DNA of 12,502 bases, taken from the IMG/VR virus record IMGVR_UViG_2541047430_000021. One strand, written 5' to 3'. Numbering within the stretch: the stretch's first letter is position 1; each line of letters starts with the position of its first letter. The translations under genes were made by a program, and so were the position numbers. The notes beneath the pieces are model-generated. The model was given only the letters and a program-made list of their open reading frames with translations, did no database searches and was not told the origin of the DNA. Below are positions 2,036-12,470 of the stretch, piece by piece. The DNA comes from a virus (taxonomy: Duplodnaviria; Heunggongvirae; Uroviricota; Caudoviricetes).

Positions 2036-2063
2036 AGGAAAAAACAAAACCCGCCGAAGCGGG
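2036..2063 (-). terminator. Rho-independent terminator of the hok transcript
   Basis: On the minus strand: CCCGC-UUCG-GCGGG hairpin (plus 2050-2063) followed by UUUUGUUUUUU (plus 2036-2049), about 70 nt after the hok stop. Confidence 0.75.
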
Positions 2064-2133
2064 TTAAGTGCGGGTGCGTTGAGGATGCCTGATTCATCAG
2101 AGGTGGCGAGGGATTTCTCCCTCGCCGGGTCTC

Positions 2134-2289
2134 TTACTCCTCAGGTTCGTAAGCTGTGAAGACAGCGACCTCCGTCTGGCCGGTTCGGATTCGTACCTCG
2201 CAGAGGTCTTTCCTCGTTACCAGTGCCGTCACTATGACGGTAATACAGATGACGATCAGGGCGATTAACATCGCCTTTTGCTGCTTCAT
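2134..2289 (-). CDS. hok: Hok-family type I toxin (51 aa membrane peptide)
   Basis: Translation MKQQKAMLIALIVICITVIVTALVTRKDLCEVRIRTGQTEVAVFTAYEPEE is near-identical to HokD/RelF as I recall it. AGGAG SD 9 nt upstream of ATG at 2289-2287. An in-frame upstream ATG at 2346 with its own GAGG SD could be a mok-like start. Confidence 0.9.
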   Translation of the reverse strand: MKQQKAMLIALIVICITVIVTALVTRKDLCEVRIRTGQTEVAVFTAYEPEE

Positions 2290-2338
2290 AGCCTGCTTCT
2301 CCTTGCCTTTCGGCGCGTAAGAGGCTAACCTACATGTG

Positions 2339-2410
2339 TCTAGCATGAAATTGGCCTCAGATTAATGTTAGGCGTCTTGCAGGACGCGTAATGTTAACTG
2401 GGGCTTTTCT
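2339..2410 (+). ncRNA. putative Sok-like antisense RNA (hypothesis)
   Basis: Plus-strand region antisense to the SD and ATG at 2346-2362. Candidate promoter TTGCCT(2304-2309)-17 nt-TAACCT(2327-2332). Hairpins at 2372-2387 (GCGTC-TTGCAG-GACGC) and CCUCAG...CUGGGG, followed by a U-rich tail CUUUUCUCU. Boundaries are inferred, not measured. Confidence 0.3.
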
Positions 2411-2464
2411 CTGTCTGCCTTACGGTGGCATGCCCGAGGCAGACAGCCTCAAGCACCCGCAGCA

Positions 2465-6333: not shown

Positions 6334-6759
6334 TTAGTGCATCACCACAGCATTCCCTGCCGGGCCGCCGCGATTCATCTGGTCATACAAAACAACCGCT
6401 GACGCAACAAAATCATCGACATCCTTCACCAGCCGATCCCTCCGTTCGACGATCTCACGGTAATATTCAGAACTGTGGCTGCGCATACGGGCCACCAGCA
6501 AAGGCGGCATCGCCTTTTCGATCGCCGGTAACAGAGCCTGCATTTTTTCAACAGCATCAGGGGTGTCTTTATCCAGCCAACGGAAAATTTTCTGGGTATT
6601 ACGGGCCAGGGCTTCCGGATGGCTGTCGTCATACAGTTCCGGGAACGTCATTCCCAGCTCGAAATACGCTTTGGTAATTTTCGCAGCCGGTACTTTTTCG
6701 CCGTCCGGATGCGCCCAGACATTCATCGCCATGCGGATGTGTTCATGCTTGATTTTCAT
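6334..6759 (-). CDS. YdaT-like (CII-like) prophage regulator
   Basis: Begins MKIKHEHI..., as I recall Rac YdaT does; 141 aa. ATG at 6759 overlaps the upstream stop (ATGA); GGAG SD. Confidence 0.75.
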   Translation of the reverse strand: MKIKHEHIRMAMNVWAHPDGEKVPAAKITKAYFELGMTFPELYDDSHPEALARNTQKIFRWLDKDTPDAVEKMQALLPAIEKAMPPLLVARMRSHSSEYYREIVERRDRLVKDVDDFVASAVVLYDQMNRGGPAGNAVVMH

Positions 6760-7058
6760 GAATCAACTCCATCAGATAAGCATGCACTACAATCACCTTC
6801 AGCATGAACTACATGTGTTTGCCCCAAACGAATGCCGCTCGCATACTCAGGCCAAATAAGCTCCCAATCATGGGGTCGTAGCTCCGCCCTACTTACTTGG
6901 CCTTCCGTCGCAGATTCGATCATAAGGGCGCGGGTTGGAGATATAGCTGTTCGTCCAGACGCCATTTGCGATAAGTAAGATGGCGATACACCAAGTCTGG
7001 CCGCGAATTTCTTAGCATCACCAACCCTTAATGATTTAATAAACTCTTTTAATGTCAT
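6756..7058 (-). CDS. Cro-like HTH protein (YdaS-like), first gene of the early-right operon
   Basis: Translation MTLKEFIKSLRVGDAKKFAARLGVSPSYLSQMASGRTAIS... is a Cro/CI-type HTH. GAGGAAGG SD before ATG at 7058. Divergent from the regulator gene. Confidence 0.8.
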   Translation of the reverse strand: MTLKEFIKSLRVGDAKKFAARLGVSPSYLSQMASGRTAISPTRALMIESATEGQVSRAELRPHDWELIWPEYASGIRLGQTHVVHAEGDCSACLSDGVDS

Positions 7059-7064
7059 ACCTTC

Positions 7065-7150
7065 CTCGGTTTAGTGTTTTTTTGCGAGTTTAGTGTTTAA
7101 TAAACCATTAAGTCAAGTATTTGCTTGTTTAGTGATTACTAAAGATAATT
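7065..7150. promoter_or_regulatory. OR-like divergent promoter/operator region
   Basis: Minus-strand promoter: -35 TTGACT (plus 7111-7116), -10 TAAACT (about 7087-7092). Plus-strand promoter: -35 TTGCTT (7121-7126), 17 nt, -10 GATAAT (7144-7149). GTTTAGTG motifs at 7069, 7088 and 7127; near-palindromes GTTTAATAAAC (7094-7104) and TTTAGTGATTACTAAA (7128-7143). Confidence 0.5.
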
Positions 7151-7155
7151 ACCAC

Positions 7156-7527
7156 ATGCAAAAAAAAGAAATTCGCCGTTTACGTCTCAAGGAGTGGTTT
7201 AAAGATAAAACTCTGCCACCCAAAGAGAAGAGCTACCTATCTCAACTAATGAGTGGGAGAGCCTCGTTTGGAGAAAAGGCTGCCAGAAGAATAGAGCAAA
7301 CATACGGGATGCCGGAAGGGTATCTGGATGCGGAATACGCAGAACAACCGGGGGGTTCTCCACCACATGCAGGGTTAACGTCTAATCAACTGGAATTATT
7401 GCAGATTTTTTCAGCCTTCCCTGAGGATGAGCAACGCCAGATAATCAGCGAGTTAAAGCAGAAAAAAGAATCAATGGAAGATCTCATAGCGAGATGGATT
7501 GCGGCGCAAAAATGCCGCCGCGCCTGA
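7156..7527 (+). CDS. CI-position HTH regulator (PaaR2-like), probably leaderless
   Basis: ATG at 7156 lies ~7 nt after the GATAAT -10 and has no SD. HTH-like segment KSYLSQLMSGRASFGEKAARRIEQTYGMPEGYLD. The ORF-track start at 7093 is a GTG inside the operator region. Confidence 0.65.
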   Translation: MQKKEIRRLRLKEWFKDKTLPPKEKSYLSQLMSGRASFGEKAARRIEQTYGMPEGYLDAEYAEQPGGSPPHAGLTSNQLELLQIFSAFPEDEQRQIISELKQKKESMEDLIARWIAAQKCRRA

Positions 7528-7547
7528 GTTATAAAACCGGAGGAAAC

Positions 7548-7739
7548 ATGAATAGAGCCCTTTCACCAATGGTTTCTGAATTTGAAACCATTGAACAAGA
7601 AAACAGTTACAACGAATGGCTGCGTGCGAAAGTAGCAACGAGCCTTGCAGATCCGCGCCCAGCAATTCCCCATGACGAAGTTGAGCGCAGAATGGCAGAA
7701 CGCTTTGCTAAGATGCGCAAGGAACGGAGCAAGCAGTAA
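7548..7739 (+). CDS. paaA2: ParE-associated antitoxin (PaaA2-like, 63 aa)
   Basis: GGAGG SD 5 nt before ATG 7548; 63-aa product directly upstream of the ParE toxin gene (1-nt gap). Length and arrangement match my recollection of the three-component paaR2-paaA2-parE2 system; the symbol is assigned from memory. Confidence 0.7.
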   Translation: MNRALSPMVSEFETIEQENSYNEWLRAKVATSLADPRPAIPHDEVERRMAERFAKMRKERSKQ

Positions 7740-7740
7740 A

Positions 7741-8019
7741 ATGTTACCCGTGTTATGGCTTGAAAGCGCAGATACCGACCTAGATGATATAACTAGTTAT
7801 ATTGCTCGTTTCGACATAGATGCGGCTGAACGCTTATGGCAGCGATTAAGGGGTTGTGTGCTGCCGTTATCCGAACATCCGTATTTATACCCACCAAGCG
7901 ACAGAGTACCTGGCTTGCGTGAGATTGTAGCCCACCCTAACTATATAATTCTATACCGCGTAACAACATCAAGCGTTGAAGTAGTAAACGTGATCCACGC
8001 AAGACGCCAGTTTCCCTAA
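7741..8019 (+). CDS. parE2: ParE/RelE-superfamily toxin (92 aa)
   Basis: Translation MLPVLWLESADTDLDDITSYIARFDIDAAERLWQRLRGCVLPLSEHPYLYPPSDRVPGLREIVAHPNYIILYRVTTSSVEVVNVIHARRQFP shows the ParE/RelE pattern (PG-RE-V--P-YIILYRV----V-V--V-HARR). Confidence 0.85.
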   Translation: MLPVLWLESADTDLDDITSYIARFDIDAAERLWQRLRGCVLPLSEHPYLYPPSDRVPGLREIVAHPNYIILYRVTTSSVEVVNVIHARRQFP

Positions 8020-8043
8020 CTTTCACTACCAATAGAAACATAA

Positions 8044-8101
8044 CAACCGCAACGACTTTATCAAAAGCGTTGTGTTTGTTATGTCCCGCGGTTTAGTTTT
8101 T
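8044..8101 (+). terminator. possible terminator of the regulator-TA operon (tIMM-like), weak
   Basis: Imperfect 13-bp stem AACAACCGCAACG / CGTTGTGTTTGTT (one mismatch, one G-U) with a 13-nt loop, followed by the T-rich GTTTAGTTTTTA. Confidence 0.3.
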
Positions 8102-8135
8102 ACTTGACTTAAGTTTAATGTTTATTAAACTAAAA
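8085..8135 (+). promoter_or_regulatory. OL/PL-like promoter-operator for the plus-strand early-left operon
   Basis: -35 TTGACT (8104-8109), 16 nt, -10 TAAACT (8126-8131). Palindrome GTTTATTAAAC (8120-8130) and GTTTAGT/GTTTAATG motifs (8090, 8113) echo those in the OR-like region. Confidence 0.45.
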
Positions 8136-8449
8136 ATACCAACCCACCCCGCCCCACAGAACGCAGGGAAATACTTCGAGTTACCCGGCAGTGGTCAGGG
8201 GTTAAGTAGCCAGCCCGAGGCGTATGAACATGACGGCAGGGTTCAACTTTAATAACTATGCAGCAGTTTTTTGTTCCGCTACCCCGGCGTTAAGGGGAAA
8301 CAGAGGGTTTCTCAGTGGGCGAAGTCAAACATCAGAATGGAAGGCATCCCGGGATCGGCAAAGAAGCAGCAATGGCGCTTTATATTGACATCAGCGCCAT
8401 TGCAGGACAGGTAAGAGTTATCAGAGCGGTAACTAAGCGGTATGCGCCT

Positions 8450-8650
8450 TTACTTCAGAAAGTCTCTGGTGAGTGCACCGAAGATATTGTCAACGATTTC
8501 GTCATCGAACTGCGAGGACTCATCTTCAGTTACAAGGTGACCACAATTTTTGCAGATGGCTCCCGCGAAACTGTCAGAGCCCTGCGGCTTAAAGGATGTG
8601 TCAAAGACTTCGCCACCACATTCTGGGCAAGAAAACTTGATTGTATTCAT
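8450..8650 (-). CDS. small zinc-ribbon protein (66 aa)
   Basis: ATG at 8650 with GAGGA SD 8 nt upstream; MNTIKFSCPECGGEVFDTSFKPQGSDSFAGAICKNCGHLV... carries two CxxC pairs. Oriented opposite to the surrounding early-left genes. Confidence 0.55.
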   Translation of the reverse strand: MNTIKFSCPECGGEVFDTSFKPQGSDSFAGAICKNCGHLVTEDESSQFDDEIVDNIFGALTRDFLK

Positions 8651-8742
8651 AACCAATTTCCTCTCGAGTAACAGACCCCTCAGAGGATACCACCTCGCCT
8701 GACGTGGTTAAAAGCAGGCAACGCTAACCACAAGGAGCCGAC

Positions 8743-8961: not shown

Positions 8962-9317
8962 TAGCTAACCAACGAAGCTAAGGTTGGTAATTAAGGAGTT
9001 CTCCACGGGTGAGGTGGAGTGCGTGCGCCGGACACGGGTGAGCATACGGCACTGACAGTTTACTGAAAGGATATTTCCCTGAAAAGTCAGACCATAACGC
9101 GAAAGCGCACGGCGAGGTAGCTGGTTCATAGATAGCCTGTCGTTAAATTTTCGTCGACCGTGCGCTTCCGGTTGTGGCAATCCGCGAAATGGCGCGGCGG
9201 TAAGTATGGAGGGGTTATTCCTTCCCCCGTTGAGGACACCGGGTTGTCAGGTTGACCATACGCTTAAGTGACAACCCCGCTGCAACGCCCTCTGTTATCA
9301 ATTTTCTGGTGACGTTT

Positions 9318-9360
9318 GGCGGTATCAGTTTTACTCCGTGACTGCTCTGCCGCCCTTTTT
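9318..9360 (+). terminator. terminator-like hairpin plus T5 run (tL-like), weak
   Basis: GGCGG (9318-9322) ... CCGCC (9350-9354) with inner CAG/CTG pairing, followed by TTTTT (9356-9360). The loop is long, so efficiency is uncertain. Confidence 0.3.
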
Positions 9361-9364
9361 AAAG

Positions 9365-9512
9365 TGAATTTTGTGATGCGGTGAATGCGGCTGAGCGCAC
9401 GCGGAACAGTTAAAACCAAAAACAGTGTTATGGGGGGATTCTCTGTATCCGGCGTTAATTGTTAACTGGTTAACGTCACCTGGAGGCACCAGGCACCGCA
9501 TCACAAAATTCA
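9365..9512. repeat. 19-bp perfect inverted repeat flanking a 110-bp spacer
   Basis: TGAATTTTGTGATGCGGTG (9365-9383) is the exact reverse complement of CACCGCATCACAAAATTCA (9494-9512). The spacer contains GTTAACTGGTTAAC. Confidence 0.8.
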
Positions 9513-9529
9513 TTGTTGAGGACGCGATA

Positions 9530-9718
9530 ATGGAAACGTTATTACCAAACGTTAATACGTCTGAAGGTTGTTTTGAAATTGGTGTCACTATCAGTAACCC
9601 TGTATTTACTGAAGATGCCATTAACAAGAGAAAACACGAACGGGAGCTATTAAATAAAATATGCATTCTTTCAATGCTGGCCCGTTTACGTCCGATACAA
9701 AAAGGATGCTGGCAATGA
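9530..9718 (+). CDS. hypothetical early-left protein (62 aa)
   Basis: GAGGA SD 7 nt before ATG 9530; stop TGA 9716-9718 overlaps the next start (ATGA). Confidence 0.5.
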   Translation: METLLPNVNTSEGCFEIGVTISNPVFTEDAINKRKHERELLNKICILSMLARLRPIQKGCWQ

Positions 9719-9998: not shown

Positions 9999-12470
9999 AT
10001 GAGTAAAGTCTTTATTTGCGCCGCCATTCCGGACGAACAGGCAATAAAGGAAGAAGGTGCCGTCGCTGTAGCCACTGCCATTGAAGCCGGTGATGAACGT
10101 CGCGCCCGCGCAAAATTTCACTGGCAATTCCTGGAACATTATCCGGCTGCTCAGGACTGCGCTTATAAATTTCTTGTTTGCGAGGATAAACCCGGTATAC
10201 CCCGCCCTGCCCTCGATTCCTGGGATGCTGAATATATGCAGGAAAACCGCTGGGATGAGGCGTCTGCTTCCTTTGTCCCGGTCGAGACTGAATCCGATCC
10301 GATGAACGTCACTTTTGACAACCTGGCCCCTGAAGTACAGAACGCTGTCATGGTTAAGTTCGACACATGTGAAAACATCACTGTTGATATGGTGATTAGC
10401 GCACAGGAATTGTTGCAGGAAGACATGGCAACATTCGACGGCCATATCGTTGAAGCGTTGATGAAAATGCCAGAAGTTAACGCTATGTATCCGGAGCTTA
10501 AGCTGCATGCCATCGGGTGGGTTAAGCATAAATGTAAGCCTGGTGCCAAATGGCCCGAAATTCAGGCAGAGATGCGCATCTGGAAAAAACGTCGCGAAGG
10601 TGAACGCAAGGAAGCCGGAAAATACACGTCTGTTGTTGATCTCGCCCGCGCCAGAGCCAATCAACAGCACACTGAAAATTCAACAGGAAAAATCAACCCG
10701 GTCATTGCTGCCATTCATCGCGAATACAAGCAGACATGGAAAACACTGGATGACGAACTGGCCTACGCTCTCTGGCCTGGTGATGTGGATGCCGGAAACA
10801 TTGACGGCAGCATCCATCGCTGGGCAAAAAATGAAGTTATCGACAACGGCCGCGAAGACTGGAAGCGTATCTCGGCATCAATGCGCAAACAGCCTGATGC
10901 CCTTCGCTACGACCGCCAGACTATTTTTGGCCTTGTCCGTGAACGTCCGATCGACATTCACAAAGACCCTGTGGCACTGAACAAATACATTACTGAATAC
11001 CTGACTACAAAGGGCGTGTTTGAAGATGAAGGAACAAATCAGAGCGCAACTGACACTCTCTCGTCGCCAGTACCAGAAACTGATGCAGTGGAAACGGCAA
11101 TTCCGGACAACGAAAAAACCGAATGCAAAGTGGAAGTCGAACCATCTGTAGAGCGTGAGGGGCCGTTCTACTTCCTCTTCACCGACAAGGATGGCGAAAA
11201 ATACGGTCGCGCAAACAAACTTTCTGGTCTGGATAAGGCGCTGGCTGCCGGGGCTACTGAAATCACAAAAGAAGAATATTTTGCCCGAAAAAATGGCACA
11301 TACACAGGCTTACCGCAAAATGCAAATACCGCACAAAATTCTGAACAACCAGAACCGGTAAAAGTTACCGCTGACGAAGTAAAGAAAATTATGCAGGCAG
11401 CCAATATCAGCCAGCCTGACGCCGAGGAACTGCTTGCAGTATCACGTGGTGAATTTGTTGAAGGGATTAGCGACCCGAATGATCCGAAATGGGTTAAGGG
11501 GATCCAGACCCGCGATTCTGTGAACCAGAACCAGCAAGAAACGGAACAGAACGACCAGAAAGCGGAACAAAACAGCCCAAATACGCAACAAAACGAGCCA
11601 GAAACGAAACAACCTGAACCAGTAGTGCAACAGGAACCGGAAAAGATCTGCACCGCCTGCGGTCAGAGCGGTGGCGGCAACTGCCCTGATTGTGGTGCGG
11701 TGATGGGTGACGCAACATACCAGGAAATATTCGATGGAGAGAATCAGCCTGAAGTTCAGGAAAATGATCCGGAGGAAATGGAAGGTACTGCACATCAGCA
11801 CAAGGAGAACACTGGCGGCAATCAGCATCATGCCAGCGATAGTGAAACTGGCGAGGCGTCAGATCCCTTAATTAAGGCGAACGGTCATCATAATCTCACA
11901 TCCACCAGCAGAGCGGGGATTCATCTGATGATCGATCTTGAAACCATGGGAAAAAATCCCGATGCCCCGATTATCTCAATAGGTGCAATATTTTTCGATC
12001 CGCAAACCGGAGATATGGGACCGGAATTTAGTAAGACTATCGATCTGGATACTGCTGGCGGAGTCATTGATCGGGACACCATGAAATGGTGGCTTAAACA
12101 ATCACGCGAAGCGCAATCTGCCATTATGACCGATGAAATCCCGTTAGATGATGCACTGTTACAATTGCGGGAATTTATCGACGAAAACTCCGGTGAATTT
12201 TTTGTTCATGTCTGGGGAAATGGAGCCAACTTCGACAACACGATTTTGCGCCGTTCATACGAACGGCAGGGGAGCCCCTGCCCGTGGCGTTACTACAACG
12301 ATCGCGATGTACGCACAATCGTTGAGCTGGGGAAAGCCATAGACTTCGATGCCAGAACGGCTATTCCATTCGAAGGTGAGCGCCATAATGCACTTGATGA
12401 CGCCCGTTACCAGGCAAAATACGTTTCAGCTATCTGGCAAAAACTGATCCCGAGTCAGGCTGATTTTTAA
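9999..12470 (+). CDS. prophage exonuclease (RecE position) with C-terminal DEDDh/DnaQ-like 3'-5' exonuclease domain
   Basis: 823-aa ORF with GAGG SD. C-terminus has the three DEDDh motifs: IDLETMG, VWGNGANFDNTIL, HNALDDARYQAKY. Internal CTACGQSGGGNCPDCG zinc-ribbon-like motif and a Q/E/N-rich low-complexity linker. Confidence 0.85.
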   Translation: MSKVFICAAIPDEQAIKEEGAVAVATAIEAGDERRARAKFHWQFLEHYPAAQDCAYKFLVCEDKPGIPRPALDSWDAEYMQENRWDEASASFVPVETESDPMNVTFDNLAPEVQNAVMVKFDTCENITVDMVISAQELLQEDMATFDGHIVEALMKMPEVNAMYPELKLHAIGWVKHKCKPGAKWPEIQAEMRIWKKRREGERKEAGKYTSVVDLARARANQQHTENSTGKINPVIAAIHREYKQTWKTLDDELAYALWPGDVDAGNIDGSIHRWAKNEVIDNGREDWKRISASMRKQPDALRYDRQTIFGLVRERPIDIHKDPVALNKYITEYLTTKGVFEDEGTNQSATDTLSSPVPETDAVETAIPDNEKTECKVEVEPSVEREGPFYFLFTDKDGEKYGRANKLSGLDKALAAGATEITKEEYFARKNGTYTGLPQNANTAQNSEQPEPVKVTADEVKKIMQAANISQPDAEELLAVSRGEFVEGISDPNDPKWVKGIQTRDSVNQNQQETEQNDQKAEQNSPNTQQNEPETKQPEPVVQQEPEKICTACGQSGGGNCPDCGAVMGDATYQEIFDGENQPEVQENDPEEMEGTAHQHKENTGGNQHHASDSETGEASDPLIKANGHHNLTSTSRAGIHLMIDLETMGKNPDAPIISIGAIFFDPQTGDMGPEFSKTIDLDTAGGVIDRDTMKWWLKQSREAQSAIMTDEIPLDDALLQLREFIDENSGEFFVHVWGNGANFDNTILRRSYERQGSPCPWRYYNDRDVRTIVELGKAIDFDARTAIPFEGERHNALDDARYQAKYVSAIWQKLIPSQADF

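What the first reader, a model, noticed from the sequence alone, without database searches (positions are those of the whole stretch)
8085..8135. Second operator/promoter sharing motifs with the OR-like region, bracketing the immunity cassette
TTGACTTAA followed by the palindrome GTTTATTAAAC occurs here on the plus strand and, reverse-complemented, at 7094-7116 (minus-strand TTGACTTAATGGTTTATTAAAC). The same operator logic therefore flanks the regulator-TA cassette on both sides, the hallmark of a lambda-type immunity region. No N-like antiterminator or boxA/boxB nut site could be recognised downstream.
Basis: seen in the sequence. Interest (0 to 1): 0.45.

Follow-up and report, generated by a model that had tools for sequence, protein, structure and literature searches.

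The report
Known prophage early-left promoter and operators
The motif is real and is the already published, repressor-controlled "PL/OL" promoter of the E. coli O157:H7 cryptic prophage CP-933P, so the finding is ordinary; the transcript it launches, however, begins with a widespread, apparently undescribed structured RNA.

Summary
TACTTGACTTAA occurs only twice in the window, at 8101-8112 (+) and 7108-7119 (-). Each copy lies next to an 18-bp GTTTARTGTTTAWTAAAC block. Local AT-matched shuffles reach this similarity about 1 time in 1000.

The window is the immunity region of prophage CP-933P/Sp12. It holds ydaT and ydaS on the minus strand and paaR2-paaA2-parE2 on the plus strand. Primers from Jurenas et al. 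2021 (mBio, PMC8630535) map exactly. Their "PL933P" reporter fragment is window 8020-8137. They report -35/-10 boxes identical to PR933P, three OL operators, and about 100-fold repression by PaaR2 (CI-like) and YdaS (Cro-like).

Homology among heteroimmune relatives starts at the predicted PL +1 (8136-8138) and runs to about 8300. This leader is unannotated, has no Rfam match, and occurs in 69% of complete E. coli genomes behind about 60 different operator types. Its 5' half is a three-tier hairpin with strong covariation. In Arsenophonus-type phages it precedes canonical boxA/boxB and an N-like gene. Its function is unknown; my leading guess is elongation or termination control.

The parts
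8104..8131 (+). PL933P core promoter: -35 TTGACT (8104-8109), 16-nt spacer, -10 TAAACT (8126-8131)
   Evidence: Consensus scan. The hexamers are identical to those of the minus-strand promoter at 7116-7087. The published PL933P GFP fragment is 8020-8137.
8091..8108 (.). OL operator-like 18-mer GTTTAGTTTTTACTTGAC, overlapping the -35
   Evidence: 12/14 match to GTTTAGTNNNNACTAAAC and one of only four such sites in the window. Member of repeat family D1.
8113..8130 (.). OL operator-like 18-mer GTTTAATGTTTATTAAAC, covering the spacer and -10.
   Evidence: It is 16/18 identical to the OR 18-mer at 7088-7105.
8101..8112 (+). 12-mer TACTTGACTTAA, shared in inverted orientation with 7108-7119
   Evidence: Exact, and the only two copies in the window. 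Inverted repeat I6.
8136..8138 (+). Predicted transcription start of PL933P (inferred; not mapped in the paper)
   Evidence: It lies 5-7 nt after the -10. Homology to heteroimmune phages begins here. In Rac the same conserved sequence starts 7 nt after a TATAGT -10.
7087..7116 (-). PR933P: TTGACT-18-TAAACT, driving ydaS-ydaT
   Evidence: PR933P activity and its +1 were shown by 5' RACE in PMC8630535.
7088..7105 (.). OR operator 18-mer GTTTAGTGTTTAATAAAC, over the PR spacer and -10
   Evidence: 13/14 match. It lies inside the PaaR2/YdaS DNase I footprints reported for the 97-bp intergenic region.
7127..7144 (.). OR operator 18-mer GTTTAGTGATTACTAAAG, in the spacer of the PRM-like promoter
   Evidence: 13/14 match. 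The published IR1 overlaps PRM933P.
7069..7086 (.). Half-conserved OR repeat (GTTTAGT left half only)
   Evidence: It agrees with the published statement that two of the four IRs are conserved on one half only.
7121..7156 (+). PRM933P (TTGCTT-17-GATAAT, read by eye) and the leaderless start of paaR2 (ATG at 7156)
   Evidence: Sequence. The published 5' RACE start coincides with the start codon, and the published N-terminus MQKKE matches the translation.
7156..8019 (+). paaR2 (7156-7527), paaA2 (7548-7739), parE2 (7741-8019): CI-like repressor plus toxin-antitoxin pair
   Evidence: RefSeq annotation. Pfam PaaA2 PF21217 and ParE PF05016. Primers map exactly.
6334..7058 (-). ydaS (7058-6756, Cro-like) and ydaT (6759-6334, CII-like). 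A perfect YdaT box TTGATTTTCATGAATCAA lies at 6749-6766.
   Evidence: Pfam YdaS PF15943 and YdaT PF06254. The published YdaT site pattern (abstract of PMC9986795) is found once with 0 mismatches.
8038..8084 (+). Long imperfect hairpin between the parE2 stop and OL; possible end of the immunity transcript (tIMM-like). This role is inferred.
   Evidence: Inverted repeat I3. MFE -24 kcal/mol, z = -4.8, 0 of 200 shuffles fold as well. No U-tract follows directly.
8138..8300 (+). Conserved PL leader RNA. It has a 5' hairpin domain at 8146-8202: P1 8146-8150/8198-8202, P2 8154-8157/8191-8194, P3 8162-8168/8184-8190, apical AAU/GUU stem with loop ACUUCGA at 8173-8179. An invariant block follows at 8204-8237. 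The 3' motifs are GCAGCAG (8260-8266), GUUCCGC (8273-8279) and a hairpin at 8282-8297.
   Evidence: Sharp conservation boundaries. Covariance model hit at 8144-8237, 105 bits. Covariation statistics. Independent MFE folds. The 3' hairpin stem covaries.

Best explanation
Window 8091-8137 is PL933P/OL, the early-left promoter and operator cluster of the cryptic lambdoid prophage CP-933P (Sp12) of E. coli O157:H7. A sigma-70 promoter (TTGACT-16-TAAACT) fires rightward in window coordinates, away from the paaR2-paaA2-parE2 cassette and into the ydfC-dicF-dicB-recE operon. Two to three GTTTAGT-N4-ACTAAAC-type repeats overlap its -35, spacer and -10. The same repeats overlap PR933P and PRM933P about 1 kb away at OR.

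Shown in print: the CI-like repressor PaaR2 and the Cro-like YdaS both repress this promoter about 100-fold.

Inferred: repression works by occluding RNA polymerase at the operator-covered hexamers. Octameric PaaR2 may bridge OL and OR, which lie about 1.0 kb apart, as lambda CI does.

Shown here: the immunity-specific DNA ends at the predicted transcription start. What follows is an immunity-independent, conserved leader RNA.
For: Motifs and promoter geometry. Similarity beyond chance in AT-matched shuffles.

Identity of the locus: 100% identity to O157:H7 chromosomes with matching annotation. All 15 published primers tested map exactly. The PaaR2 N-terminus is MQKKE. Pfam finds PaaA2, ParE, YdaS and YdaT. 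There is a perfect YdaT box at 6749-6766.

Published experiments: PL933P has -35/-10 elements identical to PR933P, has OL1-3, and its GFP fusion is repressed about 100-fold by PaaR2 and YdaS but unaffected by YdaT (PMC8630535).

Module boundary: heteroimmune phages share 88-96% identity from 8136-8138 onward but nothing upstream. About 61 different promoter/operator types precede the same leader, most showing a TTGAC-like -35 upstream of the leader start by my reading. By my reading of the sequence, Rac and pPE4 carry their own operator words at both OL and OR.
Against: The paper shows DNase I footprints only for OR. Binding at OL is inferred from repression of the reporter and from sequence similarity. 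The PL transcription start was not mapped; my +1 is a prediction. The spacers (16 and 18 nt) are not optimal and the -10 TAAACT matches the consensus at 4 of 6 positions. I could not view Fig. S2, so my operator coordinates may not coincide exactly with the authors' OL1-3.
Confidence: 0.95

Rival explanations
1. The resemblance between 8085-8135 and 7060-7140 is a chance by-product of AT-rich intergenic DNA, with no shared regulation.
For: Both segments are about 70% A+T. The generic half-site pattern TTTAGTN4ACTAAA with up to 3 mismatches is not enriched window-wide.
Against: Local dinucleotide shuffles reach the observed inverted 12-mer in 2 of 2000 trials and the 16/18 direct block in 5 of 2000. 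The four best palindrome matches in 12.5 kb all lie in these two segments. The published reporter is repressed by the two regulators.
Confidence: 0.02
2. The segment is mainly the 3' end of the paaR2-paaA2-parE2 operon (a terminator or a toxin-antitoxin autoregulatory site), and the promoter-like hexamers are incidental.
For: A very stable hairpin (8038-8084, z = -4.8) sits just upstream, inside the cloned PL fragment. Classical type II toxin-antitoxin operons are autoregulated at operators.
Against: The hairpin is separate from the motif block at 8091-8131. PaaA2 has no DNA-binding domain, and regulation is by PaaR2, YdaS and YdaT. The fragment drives GFP. Across about 60 immunity types a TTGAC-type -35 sits at a similar distance upstream of the conserved leader.
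Confidence: 0.03

Closest known systems
Phage lambda OL/PL together with OR/PR/PRM (CI-Cro switch)
   Same: Outward-facing early promoters flank a leftward repressor cassette. The same operator repeats occur at both sites and overlap the -35 and -10. The repressor mRNA is leaderless. Both the repressor and a Cro-like protein repress PL. An accessory 'moron' sits downstream of the repressor gene (rexAB in lambda, paaA2-parE2 here). The repressor forms octamers.
   Different: The operator word is GTTTAGT-N4-ACTAAAC. Four IRs are reported at OR. OL and OR are about 1.0 kb apart rather than about 2.4 kb (lambda figure from my own knowledge). PaaR2 lacks the autocleavage domain and is not SOS-inducible. 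No N gene or boxA lies downstream; a 160-nt conserved structured leader takes their place.
Qin prophage dicA/dicC control of the dicB operon promoter (E. coli K-12)
   Same: The operon downstream of the left promoter has the same content (ydfC, DicF RNA, dicB, ydfD). The repressor gene occupies the same position (stated in PMC8630535).
   Different: The repressor family (DicA versus PaaR2) and the operators differ. K-12 carries only one copy of the leader, and it is in Rac, not Qin.
Rac prophage racR / ydaS / ydaT immunity region
   Same: Same architecture, YdaS and YdaT homologues, and the same PL leader directly after the repressor gene (L003 6001-6155).
   Different: The repressor (RacR) and the operator word (TTAGGC-N3-GCCTAA type) differ, there is no toxin-antitoxin insert, and the first PL gene is ydaG.
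HK022 putL (polymerase-utilisation antiterminator RNA)
   Same: Applies to the leader only. Both are structured RNAs at the very 5' end of the PL transcript of a lambdoid phage that lacks an N protein (PMC9378689).
   Different: The covariance model finds no detectable homology in the HK022 region. The architecture differs: one three-tier hairpin plus a conserved tail, versus two stem-loops with a triplex. There is no second copy on the PR side. The 5' domain also occurs in phages that do have boxA, boxB and an N-like gene.

Membership tests
Lambda-type immunity region (OL/PL plus OR/PR/PRM flanking the repressor) | Two early promoters pointing away from the repressor cassette | tested here: met
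   TTGACT-16-TAAACT at 8104-8131 (+) and TTGACT-18-TAAACT at 7116-7087 (-).
Lambda-type immunity region (OL/PL plus OR/PR/PRM flanking the repressor) | The same operator repeats are present at both sites and overlap the promoter hexamers | tested here: met
   The four best matches to GTTTAGTNNNNACTAAAC in the window are at 7088, 7127, 8091 and 8113.
Lambda-type immunity region (OL/PL plus OR/PR/PRM flanking the repressor) | The repressor and the Cro analogue bind the operators and repress PL | not testable with these tools
   Published: the PL933P-gfp fusion is repressed about 100-fold by PaaR2 and by YdaS. Footprints were done at OR only (PMC8630535).
Lambda-type immunity region (OL/PL plus OR/PR/PRM flanking the repressor) | The immunity module is exchangeable, with homology between heteroimmune phages breaking at the operators | tested here: met
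   Homology resumes at 8136-8138. About 61 upstream operator types precede one leader. Rac and pPE4 have their own words at both sites.
Lambda-type immunity region (OL/PL plus OR/PR/PRM flanking the repressor) | nutL (boxA plus boxB) and an N gene immediately downstream of PL | tested here: not met
   No YGCTCTTTAA with up to 1 mismatch anywhere in the window. The first ORFs after the leader in E. coli-type loci show no arginine-rich motif.
HK022 put RNA | Located at the 5' end of the PL transcript | tested here: met
   The leader begins at the predicted +1.
HK022 put RNA | A second, related copy downstream of PR | tested here: not met
   The covariance model with filters off finds a single hit in the window (8144-8237). 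The next best hit has E = 0.23 and is a fragment.
HK022 put RNA | Sequence and structure homology to putL/putR | tested here: not met
   The model gives no hit at HK022 putL in L004. No Rfam family matches.
HK022 put RNA | Protein-independent antitermination through the RNA polymerase beta-prime zinc-binding domain | not testable with these tools
   This needs terminator read-through assays and rpoC mutants.
Lambda nutL | A boxB hairpin with a GNRA-like A-rich loop, bound by an arginine-rich N peptide | tested here: inconclusive
   The 3' hairpin (8282-8297) has a covarying stem. Its loop is GGCGUUAA here, and GAAAGA or GGAAGA in Serratia-type copies. No N-like partner was identified in E. coli types.

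The most novel reading that the evidence does not exclude
The promoter itself is known, but its immediate product may be a new class of cis-acting leader RNA. In N-less Rac/CP-933P-type prophages, the conserved 160-nt structured leader (8138-8300) occupies the place of nutL or putL. It would control elongation, termination or Rho access on the early-left transcript, for example to read through the DicF terminator towards dicB, recE, xis and int.

That a conserved, structured RNA with no Rfam family and no trace in the paper library I searched exists here is well supported (my estimate about 0.9). The probability given below is for the elongation/termination-control function specifically.
Probability: 0.3. 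Interest if true: 0.7.

Novelty: already known. Interest (0 to 1): 0.15.

Why it matters
The finding as given adds nothing new. PL933P/OL and its repression by PaaR2 and YdaS were published in 2021, and the lambda-like logic is textbook.

Its practical value is as an anchor. It fixes the start of the early-left transcript and shows that the published PL reporter fragment stops at 8137. That is the base before the conserved leader, so the leader has never been assayed from that reporter.

The leader is present in about two thirds of complete E. coli genomes, including K-12 Rac, and in several other Enterobacterales. It is unannotated and has strong covariation. If it governs read-through of the early-left operon, it would explain how the large group of N-less Rac-like prophages express the toxic kil and dicB genes and the recombination genes. 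It would also add a second RNA-based solution beside HK022 put.

Tried and rejected
1. Chance similarity: rejected by local shuffles.

2. HK022 put homology: I extracted putL from AF069308. Shared words such as AUGAAC and GGGUUCA are scrambled in order, and the covariance model finds nothing there.

3. A putR-like second copy on the PR side: none found.

4. boxA: none found.

5. A conserved small ORF in the leader (ATGAACATGACG...): rejected. The ATG is lost in the pPE4 type, and the reading frame and stop differ between Rac and CP-933P.

6. Known RNA families: no hit in the leader, even with a 231-nt query and permissive filters.

7. Single-sequence folding of the whole 165 nt: not better than shuffles (z = +1.5). 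The structure only became visible through comparison across lineages.

8. A target complementary to the apical loop within the window: none above chance.

9. Pairing of the apical loop with the OmrA/B seed: considered from memory and dropped, because the loop positions involved are the variable ones.

10. The metagenome scan with GAGTTAYT...AGTAGCCAGCC returned mostly random hits; only 2 of 37 were real.

11. A literature trace of the leader: none among papers on racR/ydaG or nutL, and no paper prints its sequence. The Rho-dependent terminator 'trac' of Rac lies inside racR on the PRM transcript, so it is a different element.

12. Supplementary Fig. S2 and Table S1, which hold the authors' OL1-3 drawing, are images or empty in the held text.

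Full report
OBSERVATION. The sequence is as described. TTGACTTAA lies at 8104-8112 (+) and GTTTATTAAAC at 8120-8130 (+).

The shared exact word is in fact 12 nt long, TACTTGACTTAA. It occurs only at 8101-8112 (+) and 7108-7119 (-). Next to it, in the same orientation at both sites, is an 18-mer, GTTTAGTGTTTAATAAAC at 7088-7105 and GTTTAATGTTTATTAAAC at 8113-8130.

To test it I shuffled only the two intergenic segments, preserving dinucleotides. The inverted 12-mer was reached in 2 of 2000 trials, 19/24 inverted identities in 2 of 2000, and 16/18 direct identities in 5 of 2000. Scoring every 18-mer of the window against GTTTAGTNNNNACTAAAC gives four sites at 12/14 or better: 7088, 7127, 8091 and 8113. 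Everything else scores 9 or less.

WHAT IT IS. A consensus scan finds two promoters with identical hexamers facing outward. They are TTGACT-16-TAAACT at 8104-8131 (+) and TTGACT-18-TAAACT at 7116-7087 (-).

The window is 100% identical over 6700-8400 to many E. coli O157:H7 chromosomes. RefSeq annotates, from left to right: an antiterminator Q gene, replication genes, a YdaT-family gene and a transcriptional regulator on the minus strand; then a hypothetical protein, relB and a RelE/ParE toxin on the plus strand; then ydfC, dicB and an exonuclease. Pfam identifies PaaA2 (PF21217), ParE, YdaS and YdaT. Rfam finds DicF at 9304-9355 and sok at 2284-2458.

This is the immunity region of the cryptic lambdoid prophage CP-933P/Sp12, drawn flipped relative to the lambda map.

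PRIOR WORK. Jurenas et al. 2021 (mBio 12:e02947-21, PMC8630535) studied exactly this locus. They showed that PaaR2 is a CI-like repressor translated from a leaderless mRNA with N-terminus MQKKE. That matches my translation of 7156-7527. PaaR2 and YdaS footprint the 97-bp paaR2-ydaS intergenic region. That region contains four equally spaced 18-bp inverted repeats with half-site GTTTAGTAA.

[quoted passage not shown] They named it PL933P. A PL933P-gfp fusion was repressed about 100-fold by PaaR2 or YdaS and was unaffected by YdaT.

All fifteen of their primers that I tested map exactly to the window. The PL fragment is 8020-8137, the EMSA fragment 7059-7155, and the PRE fragment 6731-6850. The published YdaT box TTGATT-N6-AATCAA occurs once, perfectly, at 6749-6766. 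The finding is therefore real, correctly interpreted, and already known.

MECHANISM. Shown in print: the promoter is active, and both regulators repress it. Read from the sequence: the 8091-8108 repeat overlaps the -35, and the 8113-8130 repeat covers the spacer and -10. The corresponding OR repeats cover the PR -10 and spacer (7088-7105) and the spacer of the PRM-like promoter TTGCTT-17-GATAAT (7127-7144). The -10 of that promoter ends 7 nt before the paaR2 ATG. Inferred: repression works by promoter occlusion. Octameric PaaR2 may loop the roughly 1.0 kb between OL and OR, a possibility the authors raise by analogy.

Between the parE2 stop and OL lies a long hairpin (8038-8084; -24 kcal/mol, z = -4.8). 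It has no U-tract. It may mark the end of the immunity transcript, but that is conjecture.

MODULE BOUNDARY. Heteroimmune phages share nothing with 8020-8135. They match 8136/8138 to about 8300 at 88-96% identity, and a phage recorded from Actinobacillus matches at 75%. In 108 unique viral-contig copies, identity to the window jumps from 0.3-0.6 to 0.8-0.98 at 8140 and collapses at 8300.

Across all loci collected, about 61 different promoter/operator types precede this conserved stretch. By my reading of the listed sequences, most have a TTGAC-like -35 at a similar distance upstream of its start. By my reading of the sequence, Rac has TTAGGC-N3-GCCTAA-type repeats both between racR and ydaS and downstream of racR. 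Phage pPE4 has TCAC-N5/6-GTGAG-type repeats at both places. This independently supports reading the segment as OL/PL of an exchangeable immunity module.

Window 8138-8300 is unannotated. It occurs in 3752 of 5426 complete E. coli genomes, with up to 7 copies per genome. In K-12 it sits directly after racR and before ydaG. It has no Rfam match, no conserved ORF and no boxA.

A pattern scan of one genome per species finds it in Arsenophonus (many copies), Phlomobacter, Symbiopectobacterium, Serratia, Pectobacterium, Winslowiella and Superficieibacter. Further lineages appear in viral contigs.

Unconstrained MFE folds of 14 of the 18 lineages tested give the same three-tier hairpin. Its stems differ completely in sequence, for example CACGAAG/CUUCGUG, CGCUGAG/CUCAGCG and CCGGGA/UCCCGG. 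They close a conserved apical loop, CAAUACNNCGAGUUA.

On a gap-free alignment of 43 distinct sequences, 77.8% of cells pair, against 22-42% when the 3' partners are slid. Eighteen of 22 pairs show changes on both sides. None of 500 shuffles reach the observed values. A covariance-model-guided alignment of 59 distinct sequences gives 83.5% paired and 19 of 22 pairs with double changes. That alignment is fitted to the model, so it is the weaker evidence.

The hairpin is followed by an invariant block, AAGUAGCCAGCCYGAGGC....GAACAUGAMGGC.

In 22 of 106 unique copies, mainly Arsenophonus and Symbiopectobacterium, a canonical boxA (CGCUCUUUAAC) comes next. In the Arsenophonus loci I inspected, a boxB (CGCUGAAAAAGCG) and a lambda-like GGGGUGUGUG...CACACACC stem follow, and then an ORF with an arginine-rich N-like start such as MCNFHGYDNARRRRHERRKAKQ.

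In 73 of 106 copies, including this window, that position is taken instead by GCAGCAG...ACGUUCYGNC plus a hairpin. Its stem covaries (CCCC/GGGG, GCCG/CGGC, GCCAG/CUGGC, GCC/GGC). Its loop is GGCGUUAA, GAAAGA or GGAAGA. The hairpin sits just before the Shine-Dalgarno sequence of a variable first gene.

There is only one copy in the window and none on the PR side. HK022 putL is not a homologue. Only about a dozen isolated phages carry the leader, and none is a model phage. I found no paper that prints the sequence or describes it.

Its function is unknown. The leading hypothesis is control of elongation or termination of the early-left transcript. This rests on three observations: the leader sits at a fixed +1 position, its 3' module is mutually exclusive with boxA/boxB, and a known internal terminator (DicF) lies downstream. 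The DicF terminator is from my own knowledge of Faubladier et al. 1990. Against a pure N-substitute role for the 5' domain, that domain coexists with an N-like gene and a nut site in Arsenophonus-type phages. RNA stability, translational control of the first gene, and binding of a host factor remain open.

VERDICT. Novelty: already known. Interest in the finding as given is low. The leader RNA is the item worth a separate look.

Noticed in passing
window 8138-8300 (+): A conserved, unannotated leader of about 160 nt starts at the predicted PL +1. It has a three-tier hairpin with strong covariation, a conserved apical loop CAAUACNNCGAGUUA, an invariant block AAGUAGCCAGCCYGAGGC....GAACAUGAMGGC, and a 3' hairpin before the first gene. 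It is present in 69% of complete E. coli genomes behind about 61 operator types. It has no Rfam family, and no paper was found.
   Followed up: yes
L126 (5301-5413 and 7158-7270, minus strand), L135 (3367-3479), L142, L140 and other Arsenophonus/Symbiopectobacterium loci: In these genomes the same 5' RNA domain is followed by a canonical boxA CGCTCTTTAAC. In the Arsenophonus loci it is also followed by a boxB-like CGCTGAAAAAGCG, a lambda N-leader-like GGGGTGTGTG...CACACACC stem, and ORFs with arginine-rich N-like N-termini. The domain can therefore sit 5' of a bona fide nutL. Many copies occur per genome, sometimes two within about 2 kb.
   Followed up: partly
window 8038-8084 (+): A 22-bp-arm imperfect hairpin lies immediately after the parE2 stop and before OL (-24 kcal/mol, z = -4.8). 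No U-tract follows. It may be the end of the immunity transcript (tIMM-like). It lies inside the published PL reporter fragment.
   Followed up: partly
window 8315-8671 (+) versus 8450-8650 (-): The annotations conflict. The phage Evi record calls a 118-aa plus-strand ORF, while RefSeq calls a 66-aa minus-strand CxxC...CxxC zinc-ribbon protein (ECs_2282 family). All three distinct substitutions seen in the overlap are synonymous in the minus frame and non-synonymous in the plus frame. This favours the minus-strand gene, but n = 3. If so, PL transcription runs antisense through it.
   Followed up: partly
window 9304-9355 (+), 9353-9562 (+), 2284-2458 (-), 2044-2125 (-): Rfam hits: DicF RNA (76.7 bits) in the PL operon; an STnc100-like match below the gathering score across the dicB region; sok antitoxin RNA (116.9 bits) next to hokD; and a weak isrK-like match (27.7 bits, below threshold).
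   Followed up: no
window 6749-6766: A perfect copy of the published YdaT recognition site, TTGATTTTCATGAATCAA, straddles the ydaS stop and ydaT start. It lies inside the published PRE933P fragment (6731-6850).
   Followed up: partly
window 9999-12470 (+): The recE-like exonuclease ORF (823 aa) is intact in this window. In strain TR01 the same gene is interrupted by an IS1203 element.
   Followed up: no
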